A stretch of 10,631 nt of DNA, from the IMG/VR virus record IMGVR_UViG_2703718802_000006; one strand, written 5' to 3'. This document shows, piece by piece, positions 3,015 to 10,631 of the stretch. A model generated the notes under the pieces. That model was not told the DNA's origin and searched no databases. It saw only the letters and a list, made by a program, of their open reading frames with translations. Each line of letters begins with the position of its first letter. Position 1 is the first letter of the stretch. The stretch is from a virus. Its lineage: Duplodnaviria > Heunggongvirae > Uroviricota > Caudoviricetes. Made by a program: the position numbers and the translations under genes.

Positions 3015-4229
3015 ATGAAATACAAGCCGGATCAATACATCATCTCTGATAGTTACGGAGTTTATTACGTCAGGATCTCAATTCCTATATGGCTTCGTAA
3101 TGCATTTGGTGGAAGAAAAACTCTCGTCCGTAGTCTGAACACTTCCGATCTTCGTGTGGCACGTAGGAAGCGTGATGTTATAGCAGACGAGTTTCACCAC
3201 ATCAGGCAAATTGCAGAGCCACCAAAACCGGACAGCCTGCAGGACACAATCAGCTATCTAAAGAGCGTTGCTAAGTACGCAAAAGCTGCCCCGAAAGCAT
3301 CAGCGCCAATTATCTCCCAATGCCCCTCTCTGAATAAGATGTTGGAGATTTACCTCACGCATAACGCTGATCGCCTGAAAATTGGAACATTAAGCAAGAC
3401 CAGGAAAGCCGTAGAACTGTTTCTGAATTACCTGCGAAAGAAGGATGTGGAACTAAACGATATCAACCGTACCACCGTTACAGGCTGGCTTGATCATCTC
3501 CGAGAAACAAAGGCAGTCCAAACAGTGGCTAACTATCTTTCTGCAATGGCAAACATTCTCGATCTTGCCTCTTCCCGATACCAGGACGCCCCACAGCTGG
3601 AAAGTAACGTATTCAGAGGGCATAAACTCAACACAGCGCAGAGCCGCCAGAGTTACGAGGCATTCACGGACGAAGAAATTACGAAGCTCATTAGCACGTT
3701 TAACAAGTTAGGAGAGGACGAATTAAGGGATTTAAGCGCCATAGCCGCTTATAGCGGAATGCGCATCAATGAAATAGCCAGTTTGAAATCTGACAATATC
3801 CGTGAAGTTGAGGGGGTGTTATGTTTCGATGTATTGGAAGGAAAGACAGCTAACGCTTCCAGGCTAATCCCATGCCATAGTGCGATTAAAACAATGGTCC
3901 TGGAACGCTGCCAGAAGCCGCACAACGGCTTTTTATTTTACCGTGCAAGTGTGACCAAGAGAGAGGACGGCAAGCGCTCCTCATGGCACGTAAACCGCTT
4001 TGGACGGCTTAAACGCGATATTCTCCCAGGGCAAGAAAACAAGGTGTTTCACTCGTACCGCCATGCCGTGATCAGTAAGCTAAACGCCGCCGGAGTGGAT
4101 GAATCTCGTATTGCCTTGCTCGCGGGCCACTCATTTGGAGAAACTGAATCTTTCAAGACGTATTCGAAATCCGTTCCTGAGCGAATAGTGAAGGAACTAA
4201 AAGAATATATCGAATTAATCAAATATTAA
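3015..4229 (+). CDS. Tyrosine-type site-specific integrase (phage integrase family), 404 aa
   Basis: ATG at 3015 with a G-rich SD (GGGGTGG). Box I Arg context (AYSGMRINEIASL), box II HxxR (FHSYRHAVISKL), a downstream LAGHS His and a C-terminal Tyr (FKTYSKS). The N-terminus (GVYYVRISIP...GGRKTLVRSLNTSDLRVARRKRD) matches the pattern of N-terminal arm-binding domains of island/P4-type integrases. Located next to the tRNA-derived att core. Confidence 0.9.
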   Translation: MKYKPDQYIISDSYGVYYVRISIPIWLRNAFGGRKTLVRSLNTSDLRVARRKRDVIADEFHHIRQIAEPPKPDSLQDTISYLKSVAKYAKAAPKASAPIISQCPSLNKMLEIYLTHNADRLKIGTLSKTRKAVELFLNYLRKKDVELNDINRTTVTGWLDHLRETKAVQTVANYLSAMANILDLASSRYQDAPQLESNVFRGHKLNTAQSRQSYEAFTDEEITKLISTFNKLGEDELRDLSAIAAYSGMRINEIASLKSDNIREVEGVLCFDVLEGKTANASRLIPCHSAIKTMVLERCQKPHNGFLFYRASVTKREDGKRSSWHVNRFGRLKRDILPGQENKVFHSYRHAVISKLNAAGVDESRIALLAGHSFGETESFKTYSKSVPERIVKELKEYIELIKY

Positions 4230-4243
4230 AATACCTTAAATGT

Positions 4244-4270
4244 GAGGGGGAATCCCCCTCTATTTTATTT
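4244..4270 (+). terminator. Bidirectional rho-independent terminator between convergent int and the 92-aa gene
   Basis: Perfect inverted repeat GAGGGGG-aat-CCCCCTC (4244-4260) followed by TATTTTATTT. The T-tract overlaps the stop codon (4265-4267) of the convergent minus-strand gene. Confidence 0.7.
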
Positions 4271-4543
4271 ATACCATACACTTTGCATATATTGCGATGT
4301 TTCAGATGAAATATTATACCAATATGCATAATTATTTGTTGCATCTACAACTATCAATTTATCATCACTATCCATCGCTTTATGAACTATTTGCGCTGCC
4401 TGTTCAGAATTGTAATGTGAATTAACATACCAATTTGATTCTGTAACTTTGACTGCTACGCCCAATGATTTAATAGCTTCGTAAACTGCTGGATAGTTTT
4501 TAGTTTTGATCAAGTCATAGGTTACAAAAAGATTGTTAGCCAT
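4265..4543 (-). CDS. Hypothetical 92-aa protein, AT-rich; predicted alternating beta/alpha pattern loosely reminiscent of Cas2/VapD-like ferredoxin-fold small nucleases (speculative)
   Basis: ATG at 4543-4541 with GGAGAG SD 8 nt upstream; stop at 4265. N-terminus LFVTYDL followed by a helix-like segment then VAVKVTESNWYVNS resembles the beta1-alpha1-beta2 start of Cas2/VapD-type proteins. Aromatic-rich C-terminus. No confident family assignment. Confidence 0.6.
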   Translation of the reverse strand: MANNLFVTYDLIKTKNYPAVYEAIKSLGVAVKVTESNWYVNSHYNSEQAAQIVHKAMDSDDKLIVVDATNNYAYWYNISSETSQYMQSVWYK

Positions 4544-4601
4544 TTTATTCTCTCCAGAGATTCAAAAGAATAAGCGCCGCTATAGGCGCTTTGAGATGTT
4601 T

Positions 4602-4730
4602 TTATTTCTTAGCTTTCTTGGTAGGGATTTTGATAGTTTCAGTTACCGTAGTGTCAGGATGTCTTTTAGCTTCAATGGGCTTAACAAACTGACCAGTTAT
4701 CGCAGAACGAACTACTGTTTTCTTAGCCAT
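4602..4730 (-). CDS. Hypothetical 42-aa basic small protein (MAKKTVVRSAITGQFVKPIEAKRHPDTTVTETIKIPTKKAKK), first gene of a two-gene cassette
   Basis: Internal ATG at 4730-4728 preceded by GAGGTG SD (5-nt spacer). The longer track ORF from 4832 adds a Cys-rich, low-complexity N-terminal extension with no SD and is unlikely. Lys-rich termini suggest nucleic-acid binding. A hairpin (4572-4591) plus U-rich tract separates it from the 92-aa gene. Confidence 0.4.
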   Translation of the reverse strand: MAKKTVVRSAITGQFVKPIEAKRHPDTTVTETIKIPTKKAKK

Positions 4731-4881
4731 AAAACACCTCATCTTGGAGATAAAGAGTGAACTGCTTACCCTTTTAAGAATAAGGGACAAACGAAGCGGC
4801 GTCAAAGAAAAAACACCACATATACACATCATTTACAAAACAAGCGCAATATGTGGTATCTCCATGCGATTTACATCACAA

Positions 4882-6753
4882 TCACCCCCCTGTGCTGCTC
4901 TGACCGCTCAAGGCTGACAAGGTGAGCGACTGTGTAAAACTGGCTTGTGAGGCTCTCGCCTGGAAATCAATGTAATCGCTCAGCCTTGAGCTATCGCTGG
5001 CGATAGTTAGCGGAACAGACGCTTCAAGATTGAGATTGAATACAGGTGCAAGATTGTACGCTGGCGCACTATTGGTGCTGGTTAGGGATGATATAGCAGA
5101 ATCACGAAGCGCTCCCCCTTTCAGAGAATCACCATTCAGGCCGTATTGTTCTACCGCTGTCCCTGTAGGCTGATCATCTATCCCTAACCAACCTTTAACG
5201 GCATGACCTACACTACGGCTGTCCCACCCTGTCTTGTCCTGCACCCAATCGGCAGCACTGTTGGCACTTCCTGTAACAGCACCATCATACAAACTCTGTG
5301 CCGCTGGCTTATCGCTACCAGTGAACCATTGAGGGAAACGTTCTTTCAGCCCTGCATTGATATCACTCACAACACTGGAAATCTCACCCACAAACCCAGT
5401 GATTTCTTTCGAGAGATTGCCTAAGCCCTCTCCAAGCATTCCCGCCGCTTCGGTGATAATTTTGGTTTTCCTTACCAGATCGTCGCCCCCATCGGCAAAG
5501 CCTTTCATCCAGCCTGTAAACAACTGATTGTCTATTCCATTCATCAGATTACCCATAGCAACACTCAAATCGCCATACTCATAAACCTGCTTGATCATTT
5601 CGTCGTTCAGCGTCTGACCGGACTCAATGAGAGTTCTTAGCGTCTTGTTATACTCTGCACCGTTGTTCATGAACATATCGGTGTAGTGCATCAGGTCATC
5701 ACCTAAACTCTCAATCAGCGTACCAATCTGAGCCTGTGACATACCACGGCGTTGCCCTTCATTCACCGTAGCTTGAACAAAATCGAGTGGTGAATCTTGG
5801 AACTTGGAAATCTGATCCTTACTCCATCCAAATTTGTTCATTATCGACGTAATGCCACCATCCCCACCCTTCCATTCGCCATTCTTCATTTGAGCATCGT
5901 TAACAGTCATGGCGAGGCGTTCACGCACATCTTTCATGTTATCGACGGCTTTTGAGGTATTAGCTGAATCAACACCGTGTTGCTGTCCCCAGGCCACCAT
6001 CGTTTTTATGGCGTTTGGGTTGGTTTTCACACGTTCACTCATTCTCACCAGTTCGAGGTTATCATTCCCTTTGTCAATAATTCGCTGCCCCACTCCGAGG
6101 GAGCCAGCCGTTAACGCAAGGCTTCCTAATACCCCACCACCGACGATAGGAGCATTCCCGCCCTTCTGAGCCTTTAGCTTAGTGGCTGCTGCGGCATACT
6201 GGGTACGCTGTGCCTGTGTCACTTTGGCTTGCTGTGCGGCTTCTCTGCGTAACAGGGTTACACGCTCACGAATAGATGCGTTCATACGGGCACTGGTCAG
6301 ATTGCCTTTGGCAAATTCCTCTGTTTGCTGACGTATGAAACGTAACGCTTCATATTGAGATTTAAGATCAAGTCCGTATTTACCTTTAATTCCTGACACT
6401 TGTAGCCCTGCATGGCGAAGTTTAAGCTCGGCTGTCTCTTGGTGCTTCTGTAGCTGCTGCTTCGCTTTCAGATTGGCCTTTTCATCCCTGGCTTTCTGCT
6501 TCTCTGCCGCACGTTGGGCTTTCATTTCCTTCGTATCACGAGGTTTATCATTAAAACGTGCATCATCGGCTTGTTGACGAGCTTTCTGTCTGCGCTGCTT
6601 CTGAGCCTGGAAGCGAATCTTGGGATCGGCTATTTTCTGGAAGTGCTTTTGAAGGTTATCCGCTGCGGCTTTAGCCAGAGCAATGCTCTGCTTATCCACC
6701 ACGAATGTAACCGTATTGCGGATCTGACTGACCGAAATATCAAGCATCGCCAC
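4882..6753 (-). CDS. Phage tail tape-measure-like protein (about 621-623 aa): N-terminal Lys/Gln/Ala-rich coiled coil, Gly-rich hydrophobic segment, globular C-terminal part
   Basis: Track start at 6753 is a GTG; an in-frame ATG lies at 6747-6745, with an 8-nt overlap with the upstream 65-aa ORF. The coiled-coil stretch (KAQRAAEKQKARDEKANLKAKQQLQKHQ...) and the GGGVLGSLALTAGSLGVG segment are typical of tape-measure proteins. The family call is by composition and architecture only. Confidence 0.55.
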   Translation of the reverse strand: MAMLDISVSQIRNTVTFVVDKQSIALAKAAADNLQKHFQKIADPKIRFQAQKQRRQKARQQADDARFNDKPRDTKEMKAQRAAEKQKARDEKANLKAKQQLQKHQETAELKLRHAGLQVSGIKGKYGLDLKSQYEALRFIRQQTEEFAKGNLTSARMNASIRERVTLLRREAAQQAKVTQAQRTQYAAAATKLKAQKGGNAPIVGGGVLGSLALTAGSLGVGQRIIDKGNDNLELVRMSERVKTNPNAIKTMVAWGQQHGVDSANTSKAVDNMKDVRERLAMTVNDAQMKNGEWKGGDGGITSIMNKFGWSKDQISKFQDSPLDFVQATVNEGQRRGMSQAQIGTLIESLGDDLMHYTDMFMNNGAEYNKTLRTLIESGQTLNDEMIKQVYEYGDLSVAMGNLMNGIDNQLFTGWMKGFADGGDDLVRKTKIITEAAGMLGEGLGNLSKEITGFVGEISSVVSDINAGLKERFPQWFTGSDKPAAQSLYDGAVTGSANSAADWVQDKTGWDSRSVGHAVKGWLGIDDQPTGTAVEQYGLNGDSLKGGALRDSAISSLTSTNSAPAYNLAPVFNLNLEASVPLTIASDSSRLSDYIDFQARASQASFTQSLTLSALSGQSSTGG

Positions 6754-6937
6754 CGCCTTTCTTACTCACCAGATAATTAAGTGCATCTGATACACTACGC
6801 CCACGATGTAATAACTGACGTAGATGACCGTGATCTATTTCAAGCACACGACACACTCCCGCCAGATTTAATAACTCTTCTGCTGTTTCAGCATTTACGG
6901 CGAGGTGAAGCCCCGCGCTTTTTACAATCACTTGCAT
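6740..6937 (-). CDS. Hypothetical 65-aa protein, translationally coupled to the downstream tape-measure-like gene
   Basis: ATG at 6937-6935 with AGAGGAAAG SD (about 8-nt spacer). Stop TGA at 6742-6740 overlaps the ATG (6747-6745) of the next gene in the arrangement ATGCTTGA. Confidence 0.45.
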   Translation of the reverse strand: MQVIVKSAGLHLAVNAETAEELLNLAGVCRVLEIDHGHLRQLLHRGRSVSDALNYLVSKKGGGDA

Positions 6938-6960
6938 TTATCTTTCCTCTTATTCTGGAA

Positions 6961-6995
6961 ATAAAAAAGGGCGGGAACACTGGGGAGATGTTCCC
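6961..6995 (-). terminator. Rho-independent terminator downstream of the capsid gene (second of two tandem hairpins)
   Basis: On the minus strand: GGGAACA-tctccccag-TGTTCCC (6995-6973) followed by GCCC and TTTTTT (6968-6963). A second hairpin (7019-7046, stem AGCCTGA/TCAGGCT) lies just 3' of the capsid stop, with a weaker U-tract. Confidence 0.65.
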
Positions 6996-7058
6996 AACGT
7001 TCACACGCCCTATTCAAAAGCCTGATTATTGCCTGCGGGTCAGGCTCCCGCTTGCTCA

Positions 7059-8090
7059 TTAAGCAGTGATGGTGATCTTCACTTGCATACCTAACGCATG
7101 GTTCACTGGTAATGCGCTGTTTTCGTGCATAACGTGGTAAGCATCGCCGCGCTCGCTCAGGTAGCCCCAAGAGTAGTATTCAGCAGGTGCAGCATCGATC
7201 AGCGCGAAGTTGCCAGAGGCAGCGCCGTAGATGTTCTGATAAGCATTTGTGCCTTTACTGAATACCGGAACCGCCACCATGTCAGCATCATCTGGCATCT
7301 GTGCAAGGATCAGCGGATCTGTCACTTTAACAATGTCGATAGGCGCACCAGGTAGGCTAAACGTACTAACACCAGGGAGAAGCTCGTGACGCTGGTAGAA
7401 TAGGTTACGGTCGTCATATGGCGCTACATACTGGAACGCCTTAGACATACTGTCAGAGAAGCGAATCTGGCTAAATGCAGCAGGTTTAGCGAATACGATC
7501 ACTCGTTCAATCTGTCCAGCCAATCCACCTGCGGCAGCCTGAACTTTGTCTAAGATGGCATCAAAATCCTGTGCCGCTGTCGCTGTGCTCACGCTGGCTG
7601 TCATTGGCACCACACCGAACAGTTCAGCATAAGAGATCAGTAGGTCATCAGTTGCAGGCGTATAAACTTCACCTTTGAACAGAGCACGGGCCAGGTAGGA
7701 TTCACGGGTACGAAGATAGGCAATCTTATGTTTCCCTGTGTACTCGGTGTACAGGTCGGTAACGGTTTGCTCGTAGTCCGTGCCTTGCACCCTTTTCCCT
7801 TGTACGTCTACTGGTTTGAAGGTGTCTTCCCTCGCAAACCAAGGGATCTCCACCAAATATTCTTTACCATTCTGACGCGCGGTAGTGTCGTGGCTTGATG
7901 AATAACGACTCTGCGGGGTGTTAAACAGGCTGTAGTTATCATCCAGAAGCTGTGTCACCACCACTTTCGGATTCTGAACACCTACCCCGTCGAAGAGGTC
8001 GAGAGCATTCATAAGATAGTTACGTTCCGGCAGAGCCTGGAAGATTGGCGCTAAATCGACCATCTCACGCCCAATTGCGATTTTACTCAT
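7059..8090 (-). CDS. Phage major capsid protein (lambda gpE-like family), 343 aa
   Basis: ATG at 8090 with AAGGAAG SD. Size (343 aa) and sequence character fit E-type major capsid proteins, and it sits immediately downstream of a gpD-like decoration gene (D-then-E order as in lambda). Strong terminator downstream. Confidence 0.75.
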   Translation of the reverse strand: MSKIAIGREMVDLAPIFQALPERNYLMNALDLFDGVGVQNPKVVVTQLLDDNYSLFNTPQSRYSSSHDTTARQNGKEYLVEIPWFAREDTFKPVDVQGKRVQGTDYEQTVTDLYTEYTGKHKIAYLRTRESYLARALFKGEVYTPATDDLLISYAELFGVVPMTASVSTATAAQDFDAILDKVQAAAGGLAGQIERVIVFAKPAAFSQIRFSDSMSKAFQYVAPYDDRNLFYQRHELLPGVSTFSLPGAPIDIVKVTDPLILAQMPDDADMVAVPVFSKGTNAYQNIYGAASGNFALIDAAPAEYYSWGYLSERGDAYHVMHENSALPVNHALGMQVKITITA

Positions 8091-8106
8091 TATTTATCTT
8101 CCTTGA

Positions 8107-8466
8107 TTAAGAGGTGAAGAATGGACGGCATACGAACCCTTTGGATTCGAGCGTGGTGATAGCTGCGGCGTGATTAGCTGCGTGCAGGTTGTCGGCTTTC
8201 AGTGCTACGAAGCTGCCAACATTAGGCGCACGTAGGACATTCACGGTTTTACCGTCGCCAGCACTCACGAAATCACTTACCACCACAAAGGCATCATCGC
8301 CGGAGGTGTATAGAGCGCCATCAGCGCCGATAACATCGCCGCATTCAATATCTGCTGGCAGGTCGAAAACACGGCCTTCTACGACTGCAAAAGAATCAGT
8401 GGCGTAGCTCACTACGTCAGTGAAACTCTTACGAATTGGGAAAAGTTCGGTTAGGTCTACAATCAT
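8107..8466 (-). CDS. Putative head decoration protein (lambda gpD-like), 119 aa
   Basis: ATG at 8466 overlaps the stop of the upstream 71-aa ORF (ATGA), with AAGGAA SD. Small Gly/Ala/Val-rich beta-type protein directly preceding the major capsid gene. Assignment is by position and composition only. Confidence 0.5.
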   Translation of the reverse strand: MIVDLTELFPIRKSFTDVVSYATDSFAVVEGRVFDLPADIECGDVIGADGALYTSGDDAFVVVSDFVSAGDGKTVNVLRAPNVGSFVALKADNLHAANHAAAITTLESKGFVCRPFFTS

Positions 8467-8678
8467 TGTTGTTTGATTTCCTTGGATTTGATTGCGATCC
8501 GTTCCTGCATACTAAGTTGAGGTGTGTCCTCAGAAGGGAAATACTGGTCTACAGCTTTTTCTATTTCTTCAACGGTACATCCTGCCATTTCAGCCACTTT
8601 AGCTATTAACTCAGGATTAACTTGAATCACTTCGGATTTGTATTTTAGGATTCGGTCGCGATTGTTTATTAAGAACAT
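8463..8678 (-). CDS. Hypothetical 71-aa protein, first gene of the capsid operon; possible HTH-like segment (LIAKVAEMAGCTVEEIEKAV)
   Basis: ATG at 8678 with GAAGGAACAACACA upstream. Four-nt overlap with the decoration gene start. Function unknown. Confidence 0.5.
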   Translation of the reverse strand: MFLINNRDRILKYKSEVIQVNPELIAKVAEMAGCTVEEIEKAVDQYFPSEDTPQLSMQERIAIKSKEIKQQ

Positions 8679-8747
8679 TGTGTTGTTCCTTCGCGTTATA
8701 ACTGCGTTTATCCTTCCATTAATAACGGAAGTGTTACATGCAGATTG

Positions 8748-8771
8748 TTAAAAAGGGGCGATTAAGCCCCT
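8748..8771 (-). terminator. Rho-independent terminator (minus strand) at the 3' end of the ~670-bp non-coding region, just upstream of the capsid operon promoter
   Basis: Minus strand reads AGGGGC-ttaatc-GCCCCT followed by TTTT (stem 8771-8766 / 8759-8754, T-tract 8753-8750). Confidence 0.6.
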
Positions 8772-9347
8772 GGAGAATATGCCCTTGTTAGAAAGCATTC
8801 TGTTAAAATCATTTTCGTTTCGGAGGATTATGATGTTAAAGAAAGGTTTCTTGAAAAAATGAAGGGCGCAACTGTTACGAATAACAGAAGTAGGATCGCC
8901 CGTCATTGCTCCCACTTCAAAACAGAAGCCCTTCTGTCATGGCGAGAAGTGGGAATGGAATTTCTTATCACCCTGGAATAGTAATAAGAGATTGCCAGCC
9001 TGAACGTAACTACCACTGACGGCGTTTATTCAGTCTGACTGCTTATAATCCTAACGGGGTTATAAGGTTTAGAGCACGGAATATGCTCTCTGAAAGAGAA
9101 TGTGCGCGGTGATTGTTCGTTACCACCCGACACAAGTGGGAACGCCCGCGCCACCCTTTGGAACTAAACACAACAAAGGAAAACAACCAGCTTTCAGAGA
9201 GGATATTCAATGGGAGAGAGCGCCGCCTATGGGAAACGGCATTCTCAGGGAGTGCGTATTGTTATACGAGGGTGGAGTGATTCTAATACCTACCCTATAA
9301 CTTATTATGACACAAATAGCACAATATGTCAAGATATTTCGTAATAT

Positions 9348-9686
9348 TTATGTTATAGCGCATTCTTCCGCGATCTGGATGGCAAGCTCTCCGAGTTCAA
9401 CGGTGATGTGTTCCATAGCGAGGGCAAGCTCCTCCATATCATTGGCAATGCGCCACGCCTGATCCACGGTGACGGTATCCCCGTTCATCTGCACCAGGTG
9501 CTCTACAGCAGCATTCCAGTGTTCAAGGGCGGTGATTGCCTGTTCAGTGTATTGCAGCGCTTCCAGGAGCGCGGAGGGCGTTCTCTCACACCACGCCCTA
9601 TTAACAAGCCACAGGGCTGGTAGATGCCAAATATCGTGGAAATAGTTAATTAGGGTGTTCATGGTGTCCATAGTTTTATTATTCAT
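9348..9686 (-). CDS. Hypothetical 112-aa acidic, predicted helical protein (second gene of a coupled pair)
   Basis: ATG at 9686-9684 preceded by AAGGAA (7-nt spacer). Its start overlaps the stop of the upstream 127-aa gene as ATGAATAA. The 161-aa track ORF from 9833 is an out-of-frame extension into the 127-aa gene and is rejected. Confidence 0.5.
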   Translation of the reverse strand: MNNKTMDTMNTLINYFHDIWHLPALWLVNRAWCERTPSALLEALQYTEQAITALEHWNAAVEHLVQMNGDTVTVDQAWRIANDMEELALAMEHITVELGELAIQIAEECAIT

Positions 9687-10062
9687 TGTTGTTTTCCTTG
9701 TCGTCAAAGAGAATATCAAAATCTTGTATGTGGTGAGATAAGCCGTTAGTTTGGGAATACCCCACCCAGTCAACATAGTTTTCTGCGTATAGCTGCCACT
9801 TCTTAAGATTCGATGAATCAACACGGTATTCACGGCGGCGGCGTGGTTTATAGAAGACGTTATCCGAAGATGCTAAAACATCCTGCAATAGTTCAAACTC
9901 TGCCCCTACGGGCACCGTTGCAGGGTATTCTATTATTTCGGTGATCCATTCTCCTGGAATAGACTCTCGTGCGAGGTCTTGTAGAGAAGAGGTGTATTTA
10001 CGTTTGCTGGCGCGAGTGGCTTTTTCGATTCTAACAATGTTACTTCGTTCTTTTCGTCCCAT
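9679..10062 (-). CDS. Hypothetical 127-aa protein with basic N-terminus and acidic C-terminal tail
   Basis: ATG at 10062 with GAGGAA SD. N-terminus is Arg/Lys-rich (MGRKERSNIVRIEKATRASKRKY), there is an internal KPRRRREYR stretch, and the tail is acidic (FDDKENNNE). Stop TAA at 9681-9679 overlaps the next gene. Confidence 0.5.
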   Translation of the reverse strand: MGRKERSNIVRIEKATRASKRKYTSSLQDLARESIPGEWITEIIEYPATVPVGAEFELLQDVLASSDNVFYKPRRRREYRVDSSNLKKWQLYAENYVDWVGYSQTNGLSHHIQDFDILFDDKENNNE

Positions 10063-10076
10063 TCATTCCTCGTAGA

Positions 10077-10161
10077 GGGAAACTTCCGTGTTTTCTCGTT
10101 AATGTCCATACTGCGTAAAATGCAAATAACCAATACATAGCGATGATCATAAAAGTTTCCC
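10077..10161. promoter_or_regulatory. Pair of 9-bp inverted repeats (GGGAAACTT / AAGTTTCCC) bracketing the intergenic promoter region upstream of the 127-aa/112-aa pair
   Basis: GGGAAACTT at 10077-10085 and its exact reverse complement AAGTTTCCC at 10153-10161, 67 bp apart, inside the 109-bp gap between the 94-aa gene stop and the 127-aa gene start. Confidence 0.35.
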
Positions 10162-10171
10162 TATTGTGTGT

Positions 10172-10456
10172 TTAGAAATTAGAGTAGATAAATTCTACAT
10201 TGTCTCGTTCGATGTGTTTCAGCGTGAATGATAGATAATGGCTTTCATCGTCGATATCGATCACACCAATGTTGCGCAGCGCACGAAGCCAGAATCTGAT
10301 CCCGTTATCACTTACACTGGATTTATCAGATAGCTCTCCGTAAGAAATTTTAGTTTTTCTGCCCTTCCAGAACCAGATAAGCGCATAATAAACGCCCTTC
10401 CCGCTATCGTTGATCTGTATCTGGTTTGTGTTGTTCAATTTTATGTATTGTATCAA
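10172..10456 (-). CDS. Hypothetical 94-aa protein, putative winged-helix-type DNA-binding regulator; TTG start
   Basis: The ORF contains no ATG or Met codon. Its first codon is TTG (10456-10454), preceded by a perfect AGGAGG SD with a 5-nt spacer. The segment ISYGELSDKSSVSDNGIRFWLRALRNIGVI resembles a recognition helix plus wing. AT-rich. Confidence 0.5.
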   Translation of the reverse strand: MIQYIKLNNTNQIQINDSGKGVYYALIWFWKGRKTKISYGELSDKSSVSDNGIRFWLRALRNIGVIDIDDESHYLSFTLKHIERDNVEFIYSNF

Positions 10457-10469
10457 TTAGTCCTCCTGA

Positions 10470-10601
10470 TTAGTTCCAGTGGCGTTGTATTGTGGCGATC
10501 CCTTTCTTCATTAGTTCAGCCGTTTGTCTTTGGGTCAATCCTTTGGATTTGTGTTCCTGTACTTCTTTACGGGTGTTGTTACCTTTAACTTTCTTTCTCA
10601 C
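10470..10601 (-). CDS. Possible 43-aa helix-turn-helix small protein (GTG start), very tentative
   Basis: Minus-strand ORF from GTG at 10601 to TAA at 10472-10470 translates to MRKKVKGNNTRKEVQEHKSKGLTQRQTAELMKKGIATIQRHWN. The segment LTQRQTAELMKKGIATIQRHW has a helix-turn-helix pattern. No good SD and a non-ATG start; below the ORF track size cut-off. Confidence 0.25.
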   Translation of the reverse strand: MRKKVKGNNTRKEVQEHKSKGLTQRQTAELMKKGIATIQRHWN

Positions 10602-10631
10602 TTTCTAGACTGGCCCCCTGAATCTCCAGAC

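What the first reader, a model, noticed from the sequence alone, without database searches (positions are those of the whole stretch)
9348..10062. Translationally coupled 127-aa (basic head, acidic tail) and 112-aa (acidic helical) gene pair of unknown function
The two genes overlap in the arrangement ATGAATAA (start of the second overlapping the stop of the first), which indicates enforced stoichiometric co-expression. The first protein has a strongly basic N-terminus and a KPRRRREYR stretch, suggesting nucleic-acid binding, with an acidic tail. The second is acidic and predicted helical, a composition seen in DNA-mimic or anti-defence proteins and in some antitoxins. I recognise neither as a known family. 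Together with the 94-aa putative regulator upstream and the flanking inverted repeats, this looks like a self-contained regulatory or accessory module of the element and is a second candidate for an undescribed function.
Basis: partly seen in the sequence, partly recalled or inferred. Interest (0 to 1): 0.55.

Follow-up and report, generated by a model that had tools for sequence, protein, structure and literature searches.

The report
Orphan gene pair in a phage satellite
Two small overlapping genes of unknown family are real, conserved core genes of an apparently undescribed phage-satellite-like island of enterobacteria; they sit between its replication genes and a promoter, structured RNA and terminator that precede its capsid and tail genes, so they may control that switch, though nothing shows this directly.

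Summary
A 127-aa gene (9679-10062, minus strand) and a 112-aa gene (9348-9686, minus strand) overlap in ATGAATAA. Both are under purifying selection. They keep this order and an overlap in 32 of 33 related loci.

Neither protein matches any family in Pfam, PHROGs, NCBIfam, PADLOC or PDB. An exhaustive profile search of 1.84 billion proteins found only 29 relatives of the 127-aa protein.

The 112-aa protein is a confident three-helix bundle with net charge -13. The 127-aa protein could not be modelled.

The pair is not self-contained. An unannotated 36-codon hydrophobic ORF overlaps the start of the 127-aa gene, and its ribosome-binding site is locked in a conserved mRNA stem. The three genes end the early operon of a ~14-kb integrative island that carries capsid, decoration, tape-measure and distal-tail genes. 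The last two resemble those of virulent Phapecoctavirus phages.

Eighteen bases after the 112-aa stop lies a near-consensus promoter. It is followed by a covarying ~550-nt RNA, a terminator and the late operon.

My best guess, at about 0.3 confidence, is an early-to-late switch factor placed like lambda Q. A capsid-specific or scaffold role is disfavoured. Toxin-antitoxin, packaging and anti-defence roles are not excluded.

The parts
9679..10062 (-). p127: a 127-aa orphan protein with a basic N-terminal helix, an invariant KPRxR(R/K) loop, a W-Q motif and an acidic-aromatic tail (DFDILFDD)
   Evidence: ORF and translation; composition; alignment A1 with invariant residues; dN/dS 0.16-0.33; no family hit; only 29 relatives among 1.84 billion representatives; AlphaFold2 model poor, pLDDT 55.7
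9348..9686 (-). p112: a 112-aa acidic protein (pI 4.39, net -13) forming an antiparallel three-helix bundle; its start overlaps the p127 stop in ATGAATAA
   Evidence: AlphaFold2 pLDDT 88.4 with helices 4-34, 37-67 and 74-111; only generic bundle matches; alignments A2 and A6 with the motif WHLPxLxLVNxA...TPxxLxEA; dN/dS 0.20-0.36
10040..10150 (-). Unannotated small ORF of 36 aa, MIIAMYWLFAFYAVWTLTRKHGSFPLRGMNGTKRTK: hydrophobic segment plus basic tail; overlaps the p127 start by 22 nt; Shine-Dalgarno GGGAAA
   Evidence: Present in 30 of 33 loci, including the divergent L023 clade; absent from L010, L019 and the decayed L015; dN/dS 0.30-0.65; not annotated in RefSeq
10076..10162 (-). mRNA stem enclosing the small ORF. 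The 5' arm AGGGAAACUUUU (10151-10162) covers the small ORF's Shine-Dalgarno. The 3' arm GGAAGUUUCCCU (10076-10087) lies just upstream of the p127 Shine-Dalgarno.
   Evidence: A closing stem of 10-13 bp appears in the minimum-free-energy fold of 13 of 16 distinct sequences. The arms differ in the L023 clade (AAAGGAAAACAUU / GGUGUUUUCCUUU), which is a compensatory change; three L023-clade sequences instead fold the 3' arm onto the p127 Shine-Dalgarno. Overall energy is not better than shuffles in the window clade.
10172..10456 (-). 94-aa winged-helix gene, immediately upstream in the same operon
   Evidence: Weak HTH hits only; replaced by 92-aa or 153-aa HTH_36 variants in relatives
10470..10601 (-). 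Last ~43 codons of a 494-aa P-loop, helicase-like early gene, cut off by IS2 (IS2 end from 10606)
   Evidence: Intact gene at L011 8109-9593; only residues 458-494 are left in this genome; IS2 annotated next to it
9304..9332 (-). Near-consensus sigma-70 promoter, TTGACA-17-CATAAT with extended -10 TG, 18 nt after the p112 stop
   Evidence: 11 of 12 matches; present at the same place in every clade, including L035 and L036
8750..9298 (-). Structured RNA or leader of ~550 nt, ending in an intrinsic terminator (hairpin 8755-8770, U-run 8750-8754)
   Evidence: MFE -191 against -150.8 +/- 5.9 kcal/mol for shuffles, z -6.8. 77 consensus pairs; 94.4% of cells paired against 85.6% in shuffles (0/500); 28 pairs with compensatory changes against 16.2 (0/500); slid controls 7-13. 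Terminator fold. No Rfam family.
4882..8678 (-). Late (morphogenesis) operon downstream: 71-aa gene, 119-aa decoration-like gene, major capsid protein, 65-aa gene, 623-aa tape-measure-like gene
   Evidence: Phage_cap_E 1e-13 and phrog_16051 1e-96. The tape-measure-like protein aligns full-length with the tape measure of Phapecoctavirus anhysbys.

Best explanation
The 127-aa and 112-aa proteins, with the small hydrophobic ORF in front of them, are the last genes of the early (replication and regulation) operon of a ~14-kb integrative, phage-satellite-like island.

I propose that they form the island's early-to-late switch. Once the early operon is expressed, p127 acts on the near-consensus promoter, structured leader RNA and terminator that start 18 nt after the p112 stop. 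It would do so through its basic N-terminal helix and invariant KPRxR(R/K) loop. This would allow expression of the capsid and tail operon, by terminator read-through or by relieving RNA-mediated blocking of the first late gene's ribosome-binding site.

p112, an acidic three-helix bundle made in coupled amounts, would be its partner. It could be an adaptor to RNA polymerase or a helper factor, or an inhibitor that holds p127 in check.

Shown here:
- The genes are real, conserved and overlapping.
- They are core genes of the island.
- The layout 'early operon, cassette, constitutive-type promoter, structured RNA, terminator, late operon' holds in every clade.
- The pair does not co-vary with capsid or tail gene type.

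Inferred only: any nucleic-acid binding, any p127-p112 contact, and any effect on late expression.
For: Position:
- The pair always lies between the winged-helix/replication genes and the late operon, in all intact loci and in the most distant relatives.
- The p112 stop is 18 nt from the -35 hexamer of a promoter matching 11 of 12 positions, with extended -10. That promoter is conserved in every clade.
- An RNA of 230-570 nt follows, with strong covariation.
- Next comes an intrinsic terminator whose hairpin sequence turns over while its position is kept. The late operon starts about 70 nt further on.
- From my own knowledge, this is the layout of lambda Q, PR', 6S RNA, tR' and the late genes.
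- The consensus fold pairs invariant leader segments (GUUCC, CGCG) with the ribosome-binding region of the first late gene.

Core status:
- Same place and same families in all elements, while cargo genes vary.

Independence from structural variants:
- Pairwise-identity correlation of p127 or p112 with the capsid, decoration and tape-measure proteins is 0.15-0.22, against 0.90 for decoration with capsid.
- p112 is 86% identical between the window and L003, whose capsid proteins are 19% identical.

Composition:
- Basic N-terminal helix and conserved basic loop.
Against: - p127 is not basic overall (pI 5.76), and its model is too poor to show a DNA- or RNA-binding fold.
- Neither protein's type tracks the promoter spacer type. 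Spacer type A occurs with p127 variants that are 40-100% identical, and near-identical p112 variants occur with spacer types A and B.
- The late operon could instead have a helper-dependent promoter of its own in the ~70 nt after the terminator, with the RNA being a stand-alone regulator.
- The small hydrophobic ORF has no obvious role in this model.
- The p127-p112 identity correlation (0.64) is only a little above that of other adjacent genes (0.48-0.55), so contact between the two is not shown.
Confidence: 0.3

Rival explanations
1. The cassette is a toxin/antidote-like, lysis-timing or abortive-infection module. The small hydrophobic peptide is a membrane-active effector kept silent by the mRNA stem, and p127 and p112 are a modulator pair, with p112 neutralising p127 or the peptide. 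It would serve to kill or lyse the cell, or to interfere with the helper at the right time.
For: - A conserved 35-39-aa hydrophobic ORF with a basic tail has its Shine-Dalgarno sequestered by a stem of 10-13 bp, with compensatory change between clades. This is as in type I toxin mRNAs.
- Three consecutive overlapping genes.
- The last protein is acidic.
Against: - No hit to any toxin, antitoxin or defence family.
- p112 has no DNA-binding domain.
- The cassette is a fixed core feature, not in the variable cargo positions.
- L010, L019 and L035 keep the pair without the small ORF.
- No antisense RNA partner was identified.
Confidence: 0.17
2. The pair redirects packaging. p127, a small-terminase-like or Rpp-like DNA-binding protein, and p112 would steer the helper's terminase to the island's DNA, since the island has no terminase of its own.
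For: - No terminase, portal or recognisable small terminase anywhere in the element, although it has its own capsid protein.
- The pair lies just upstream of the morphogenesis genes.
- Basic N-terminus.
Against: - No similarity to any terminase small subunit.
- The pair lies upstream of the late promoter and terminator, not in the late operon.
- The adjacent conserved non-coding stretch behaves as RNA on the sense strand, with many G-U pairs, rather than as a DNA packaging site.
- The 71-aa first late gene is an equally good candidate.
Confidence: 0.12
3. The pair is a helper- or host-takeover or anti-defence pair. p112 would be a protein or DNA mimic that blocks a host or helper factor such as a restriction enzyme, RNA polymerase or a helper late function, and p127 would be its nucleic-acid-binding companion.
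For: - p112 is small, helical, acidic and an orphan.
- Independence from capsid and tail variants fits a target outside the island.
- Expression would be early.
Against: - Acidity is moderate: 15% D+E and net -13, well below what I recall for classic mimics such as Ocr.
- No fold match to any known mimic or anti-defence protein.
- No PADLOC or Pfam hit.
- Anti-defence genes are usually variable, whereas this pair is core.
Confidence: 0.12
4. The pair has a capsid-assembly role, with p112 as a small acidic helical scaffolding protein and p127 as an assembly or head-completion factor.
For: p112 is acidic and all-helical, as small scaffolding proteins are. The island has a capsid gene but no recognised scaffold.
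Against: - The pair is outside the late operon, separated from it by a promoter, a ~550-nt RNA and a terminator.
- It does not co-vary with the capsid protein: correlation 0.18, and 86% against 19% identity between the window and L003. Decoration and capsid co-vary at 0.90.
- No homology to structural proteins.
Confidence: 0.05

Closest known systems
Lambdoid late switch: gene Q, promoter PR', 6S RNA, terminator tR', late genes
   Same: - The last gene(s) of the early/replication operon lie directly upstream of a strong constitutive-type sigma-70 promoter.
- That promoter makes a terminated RNA just ahead of the structural operon.
- This architecture is conserved while the sequences turn over.
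   Different: - No sequence or fold similarity to any Q family.
- Two proteins plus a small ORF instead of one.
- The terminated RNA is 230-570 nt and strongly structured with covariation, unlike the short 6S RNA.
- No Q-binding element or sigma-dependent pause was demonstrated.
- No protein-promoter co-variation was seen.
P1/P7 c4 and P4 CI leader-derived antisense RNA control
   Same: A constitutive promoter drives a structured leader RNA. Segments of that RNA are complementary to the ribosome-binding region of the downstream gene.
   Different: - Those systems control antirepressor or replication genes, not morphogenesis genes.
- They involve no dedicated upstream protein pair.
- There is no Rfam match to c4 or CI here.
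- The complementary segments are invariant, so the pairing is not proven by covariation.
Type II toxin-antitoxin pairs, and type I toxin mRNAs for the small ORF
   Same: - Small overlapping genes.
- An acidic second protein.
- A hydrophobic mini-ORF whose Shine-Dalgarno is locked in an mRNA stem.
   Different: - No family membership.
- No DNA-binding antitoxin domain.
- Core, fixed location in the element.
- No antisense RNA found.
Phage satellites (P4-like, PICI, capsid-forming PICI, PLE, PICMI), as the context of the pair
   Same: - A ~14-kb integrative island with an integrase, a replication module and only part of a virion gene set.
- Genes related to those of a candidate helper.
   Different: - The gene content fits none of these families. 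It has its own capsid and decoration genes plus tape-measure and distal-tail homologues, but no portal, protease, terminase, or Sid/Psu/Cpm-type genes.
- The candidate helper is a virulent ~150-kb Phapecoctavirus.
- No paper describing it turned up in six full-text searches.

Membership tests
Lambdoid Q antiterminators | Sequence or fold membership in a Q family | tested here: not met
   No Pfam hit at E<=1 for any of the 45 members of either family. PDB profile searches at E<=10 found no Q protein.
Lambdoid Q antiterminators | Gene immediately upstream of a constitutive late promoter, followed by a terminator ahead of the late genes | tested here: met
   Promoter at 9304-9332, 18 nt after the p112 stop. 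Terminator at 8750-8770. Late operon from 8678. The same layout occurs in all clades.
Lambdoid Q antiterminators | Binds a DNA element at the promoter, engages a sigma-dependent paused polymerase and causes terminator read-through | not testable with these tools
   Needs biochemistry or reporter assays. No co-variation between protein type and promoter spacer type was seen.
Lambda N-type arginine-rich antiterminators | N-terminal arginine-rich motif, with a boxA/boxB nut site in the target RNA | tested here: inconclusive
   The N-terminal 20 residues carry +5 and are predicted helical. There is no homology and overall pI is 5.76. I saw no clear boxA/boxB when reading the leader alignment; no systematic search was done.
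Type II toxin-antitoxin | Homology to a known toxin or antitoxin family | tested here: not met
   Pfam, NCBIfam and PADLOC gave no hits.
Type II toxin-antitoxin | Antitoxin with a DNA-binding domain (HTH, RHH or AbrB) plus a toxin-binding tail | tested here: not met
   p112 is a plain three-helix bundle with net charge -13.
Type I toxin-like small membrane peptide (small ORF only) | Hydrophobic peptide under 60 aa with its ribosome-binding site sequestered in an mRNA fold | tested here: met
   35-39 aa, present in 30 of 33 loci. A stem of 10-13 bp covers the Shine-Dalgarno in 13 of 16 distinct folds, with different but complementary arms in the L023 clade.
Type I toxin-like small membrane peptide (small ORF only) | Cis- or trans-encoded antisense RNA antitoxin; toxicity on expression | not tested
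   No convincing antisense promoter or terminator was seen in the simple scan. Toxicity needs an experiment.
DNA-mimic or anti-restriction proteins (Ocr, ArdA type) | Very high negative charge density arranged to mimic DNA; fold related to known mimics | tested here: not met
   D+E is 17 of 112 residues (15%). Foldseek against PDB and BFVD gave only generic bundles, best E 0.2-0.45.
Terminase small subunit | Homology to a small-terminase family; adjacency to a large terminase gene | tested here: not met
   No Pfam, PHROG or PDB hit. No large terminase gene in any full-length element.
Capsid scaffolding protein | Encoded in the late operon next to the capsid gene and co-evolving with it | tested here: not met
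   Separated from the late operon by a promoter, an RNA and a terminator. Correlation with the capsid protein is 0.18, against 0.90 for decoration with capsid.
Phage satellite (element level) | Integrative island with an integrase, its own replication genes and an incomplete virion gene set | tested here: met
   Full-length ~13.7-14.3-kb copies L003, L007 and L035, plus the copies embedded in L002, L023 and L036. Direct repeats lie at the ends of L035 and L007.
Phage satellite (element level) | Induction and packaging depend on a helper phage | not testable with these tools
   Indirect evidence only. The distal-tail-like protein is 72% identical, and the tape-measure-like protein aligns full-length, to adjacent genes of Phapecoctavirus anhysbys.

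The most novel reading that the evidence does not exclude
The small membrane peptide, p127, p112 and the adjacent ~550-nt covarying RNA together form a previously unknown kind of early-to-late or helper-sensing switch. It would be a protein pair working on, or with, a large structured RNA. It would be the core control unit of a new family of satellites that parasitise virulent Phapecoctavirus (rV5/phAPEC8-like) phages of E. coli, Klebsiella, Enterobacter and relatives.
Probability: 0.2. Interest if true: 0.8.

Novelty: new variant of a known kind. Interest (0 to 1): 0.55.

Why it matters
If the pair is the late switch, it would be a non-homologous solution to the problem that lambda solves with Q, coupled to a large structured RNA. 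It would also give a handle on how a satellite times capsid and tail gene expression during infection by a virulent helper.

Independently of the pair's exact role, following it up exposed three further things:
- An island family that fits none of the described satellite families I compared it with. It carries its own capsid, decoration, tape-measure and distal-tail genes.
- A likely link to Phapecoctavirus phages, which are used in phage therapy work on E. coli and Klebsiella.
- An unannotated membrane mini-protein and a new structured RNA.

All of these are directly testable, using intact copies present in sequenced clinical strains and available helper candidates.

Tried and rejected
- Family searches for both proteins found nothing: Pfam for single sequences and for all 45 members of each family, PHROGs, NCBIfam and PADLOC.
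- PDB profile searches gave only a designed coiled coil for p112, which reflects composition, and noise for p127.
- tblastn against 50,697 phage records found no homologue of either protein.
- An exhaustive HMM search with the p127 profile found 29 hits. All are the same small family except one leucine-rich-repeat false positive.
- A broadened profile of the p112 family found only hypothetical proteins of Enterobacterales.
- Rfam searches of the window and two full elements, at gathering and at E-value thresholds, found nothing.
- blastn of the non-coding gap against phages gave no match, so there is no evidence that it copies a helper packaging site.
- RNAalifold on my first alignment of the small-ORF region failed because I gave wrong coordinates for one sequence. 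I replaced it with per-sequence folds.
- I looked for co-variation between p127 or p112 type and promoter spacer type and found none.
- The scaffold or capsid-specific role was rejected on the mirror-tree result.
Full report
THE OBSERVATION

The window carries, on the minus strand, a 127-aa ORF (9679-10062) and a 112-aa ORF (9348-9686). The junction reads ...AAC AAT GAA TAA, with ATG AAT AA in the second frame. Both genes have Shine-Dalgarno sequences.

The first protein has +5 net charge in its first 20 residues, KPRRRREYR at residues 72-80 and an acidic tail. Its overall pI is 5.76. The second protein has pI 4.39 and net charge -13. AlphaFold2 folds the second as an antiparallel three-helix bundle with mean pLDDT 88.4. 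The first is modelled poorly, at pLDDT 55.7.

Both are real genes. I found 167 and 88 clusters of homologues, all annotated 'hypothetical', all without Pfam domains and all in Enterobacterales. dN/dS is 0.16-0.36. Across 33 related loci the p127-like gene is followed by an overlapping acidic gene in 32. The exception, L015, is a decayed copy.

WHERE THE PAIR SITS

The left of the window is E. coli chromosome (paoC, paoD and a LysR remnant). From 3015 onward it is an integrated island. Only 12 of 5,426 complete E. coli genomes carry the pair.

Full-length copies are about 13.7-14.3 kb (L003, L007, L035, and copies embedded in L002, L023 and L036). They share one plan, in this order:
- an integrase and variable cargo;
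- a small tyrosine recombinase (a serine recombinase in L023);
- about 1.9 kb of non-coding DNA;
- an early operon with a small ribbon-helix-helix-like gene, a replication-type gene (a 250-266-aa winged-helix protein or a 494-aa P-loop helicase-like protein) and a 92-153-aa winged-helix gene;
- the pair;
- a non-coding gap of 350-850 nt;
- a late operon with a 70-75-aa gene, a 119-125-aa decoration-like gene, a lambda-E-type major capsid protein, a 64-67-aa gene, a ~620-aa tape-measure-like protein and, in many copies, a distal-tail-like protein.

There is no portal, protease, terminase, sheath or tube gene.

The tape-measure-like protein aligns over its full length with the genuine tape measure of Phapecoctavirus anhysbys. 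The distal-tail-like protein of L003 is 72% identical to the gene that follows that tape measure in the phage. The island therefore looks like a satellite of virulent rV5/phAPEC8-like myophages, or at least a recipient of their genes.

It fits none of the described satellite families I compared it with. Six full-text searches found no description of it.

The window copy is a remnant. IS2 (from 10606) has removed all but the last ~37 codons of the 494-aa gene and everything upstream of it. It also lacks the distal-tail gene.

THE PAIR IS NOT SELF-CONTAINED

Aligning the region upstream of p127 across loci revealed a conserved small ORF that RefSeq does not annotate. It lies at window 10040-10150 and encodes 36 aa, MIIAMYWLFAFYAVWTLTRKHGSFPLRGMNGTKRTK. 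It has its own Shine-Dalgarno and overlaps the p127 start by 22 nt.

The small ORF is present in 30 of 33 loci. These include the L023 clade, where p127 is only ~42% identical; there it reads MIVAMYWLLFFITLEAYFGVFSFKRKGKVNNGKKKKQRC. It always has a hydrophobic segment and a basic tail.

Only about 22 nt separate it from the stop of the winged-helix gene. The cassette is therefore most simply the distal end of the early operon.

These form the closing stem of the minimum-free-energy fold in 13 of 16 distinct sequences, and the stem buries the small ORF's Shine-Dalgarno. In the L023 clade both arms are different but still complementary. Three L023-clade sequences instead fold the 3' arm onto the p127 Shine-Dalgarno, which suggests a translational switch.

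Some lineages have an extra 74-76-aa gene between p127 and the bundle protein (L010, L012, L036) or a fusion of the two (L011). L035 has three small genes there.

WHAT LIES JUST DOWNSTREAM

Eighteen bases after the p112 stop is a promoter, TTGACA-17-CATAAT, with an extended -10 TG (11 of 12 matches). A near-consensus promoter with the same TG feature sits at the same place in every clade, including the most distant ones.

The following ~550 nt fold far better than shuffles: -191 against -150.8 +/- 5.9 kcal/mol, z -6.8.

On 12 diverse sequences the consensus structure has 77 pairs:
- 94.4% of cells are paired, against 85.6% in column shuffles (0 of 500 reach the observed value).
- 28 pairs show compensatory changes, against 16.2 expected (0 of 500).
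- Slid-partner controls give 7-13.
- Many pairs are G-U on the sense strand, which points to an RNA transcribed in the gene direction.

No Rfam family matches.

The RNA ends in an intrinsic terminator (hairpin 8755-8770, U-run 8750-8754). The hairpin sequence differs between lineages but its position does not. About 70 nt later the late operon begins.

The consensus fold also pairs invariant leader segments with the ribosome-binding region of the first late gene. Because those columns never vary, this pairing is unproven.

WHAT THE PROTEINS ARE NOT

- Neither has a hit in Pfam, PHROGs, NCBIfam, PADLOC or PDB sequence profiles.
- Neither has a homologue in 50,697 phage genomes.
- The exhaustive profile search of 1.84 billion representatives gave 29 hits for p127. 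All are the same small family apart from one repeat-protein false positive.
- The distant members I could place, L035 and L036, sit in the same island architecture.
- Foldseek with the p112 model returns only generic helical bundles.

A mirror-tree test on 15 loci shows that decoration and capsid proteins co-vary tightly (rho 0.90). p127 and p112 correlate with the capsid, decoration and tape-measure proteins only at 0.15-0.22. p112 is 86% identical between the window and L003, whose capsid proteins are 19% identical. This argues against a scaffold or any capsid-type-specific role.

p127 and p112 correlate with each other at 0.64, only a little above other adjacent gene pairs (0.48-0.55). Physical interaction is therefore plausible but not shown. 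L003 combines a 40%-identical p127 with an 86%-identical p112, so recombination separates the two.

MOST LIKELY MECHANISM

The one strong, repeatable fact is position. The cassette closes the early operon and abuts a constitutive-type promoter, a terminated structured RNA and the late operon, in every clade, while everything around it recombines freely. From my own knowledge, this is the arrangement of lambda Q, PR', 6S RNA and tR'. The leader RNA also recalls the leader-derived antisense RNAs of P1 (c4) and P4 (CI).

I therefore propose that p127, with its basic N-terminal helix and invariant KPRxR(R/K) loop, acts on the promoter or leader to open late expression, and that p112 is its coupled partner or restraint.

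Confidence is only about 0.3:
- There is no homology to any regulator.
- p127 is not basic overall.
- No protein-promoter co-variation was found.
- The late operon may have its own helper-dependent promoter.
- The small membrane ORF is unexplained by this model.

Rivals:
- a toxin-like or lysis-timing module built around the small peptide (0.17);
- packaging redirection (0.12);
- capsid assembly (0.05).

The remainder is 'something else'.

NOVELTY AND VERDICT

The two proteins are orphan families confined to one island family. By layout the island itself is a satellite of a kind not described in the literature I could search.

I rate the finding a new variant of a known kind: a satellite early/late module built from non-homologous parts. 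It may turn out to be more than that if the proteins work with the structured RNA.

Interest is 0.55. The pair alone is an uncharacterised orphan pair. Its context makes it a worthwhile and directly testable target: a new satellite family, a likely virulent helper, a hidden membrane mini-gene and a new ~550-nt RNA.

Noticed in passing
window 8750-9298 (- strand), promoter 9304-9332: A ~550-nt RNA driven by a near-consensus extended -10 promoter and ended by an intrinsic terminator. It is very stable (z -6.8) and has strong covariation (28 compensatory pairs against 16 expected; 0 of 500 shuffles reach this). No Rfam family matches. It is shorter (~230 nt) in the L023 clade. It may be a new structured regulatory RNA of the island.
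   Followed up: partly
window 10040-10150 (- strand): An unannotated conserved 36-codon ORF for a hydrophobic peptide with a basic tail. It overlaps the p127 start, and a conserved long-range mRNA stem (10076-10087 with 10151-10162) sequesters its Shine-Dalgarno.
   Followed up: yes
window 3015-10605; full copies L003, L007, L035, L002 7690-21200, L023, L036: The whole element is a ~14-kb integrative island found in E. coli, Enterobacter, Klebsiella, Citrobacter, Cronobacter, Buttiauxella and others. It has capsid, decoration, tape-measure and distal-tail genes but no portal or terminase. It fits none of the described satellite families I compared it with, and no paper on it was found.
   Followed up: partly
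window 4882-6753; L003 12311-12988; L034 (phage anhysbys) 8170-10992: The island's tape-measure-like protein aligns full-length (31.5%, E 7e-84) with the tape measure of Phapecoctavirus anhysbys. The distal-tail-like protein is 72% identical to the next phage gene. This points to virulent ~150-kb Phapecoctavirus phages as helper or gene donor.
   Followed up: partly
window 10470-10631; L001 15126-16578: The window copy is truncated. IS2 (from 10606) replaces all but the last ~37 codons of a 494-aa P-loop helicase-like gene and the whole upstream part of the island. This copy has therefore lost its early promoter and replication module.
   Followed up: yes
L003 3050-5499; L007 2030-4642; L023 5731-8453: In intact elements a small site-specific recombinase (tyrosine type, or serine type in L023) faces a ~1.9-kb stretch without called genes, upstream of the early operon. 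This could be an origin, an invertible or resolution site, or further RNA genes. It is not present in the window.
   Followed up: no
window 8107-8466 and 7059-8090: The 119-aa acidic gene directly upstream of the lambda-E-type capsid gene co-varies with it at rho 0.90. It occupies the place of lambda gpD, so it is probably a decoration protein. Two very divergent capsid/decoration types (about 20% identity) circulate among otherwise similar islands.
   Followed up: partly
window 4265-4543 (- strand): A 92-aa gene matching phrog_1090 (unknown function, E 8e-22) replaces the distal-tail-like gene next to the integrase in this copy and in L011.
   Followed up: no
L007 ends; L035 ends: L007 (13,712 nt) has a 21-nt terminal direct overlap. 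L035 carries ATGCCAGCGGAGGGA near both ends. This is consistent with att repeats or a circular form.
   Followed up: no
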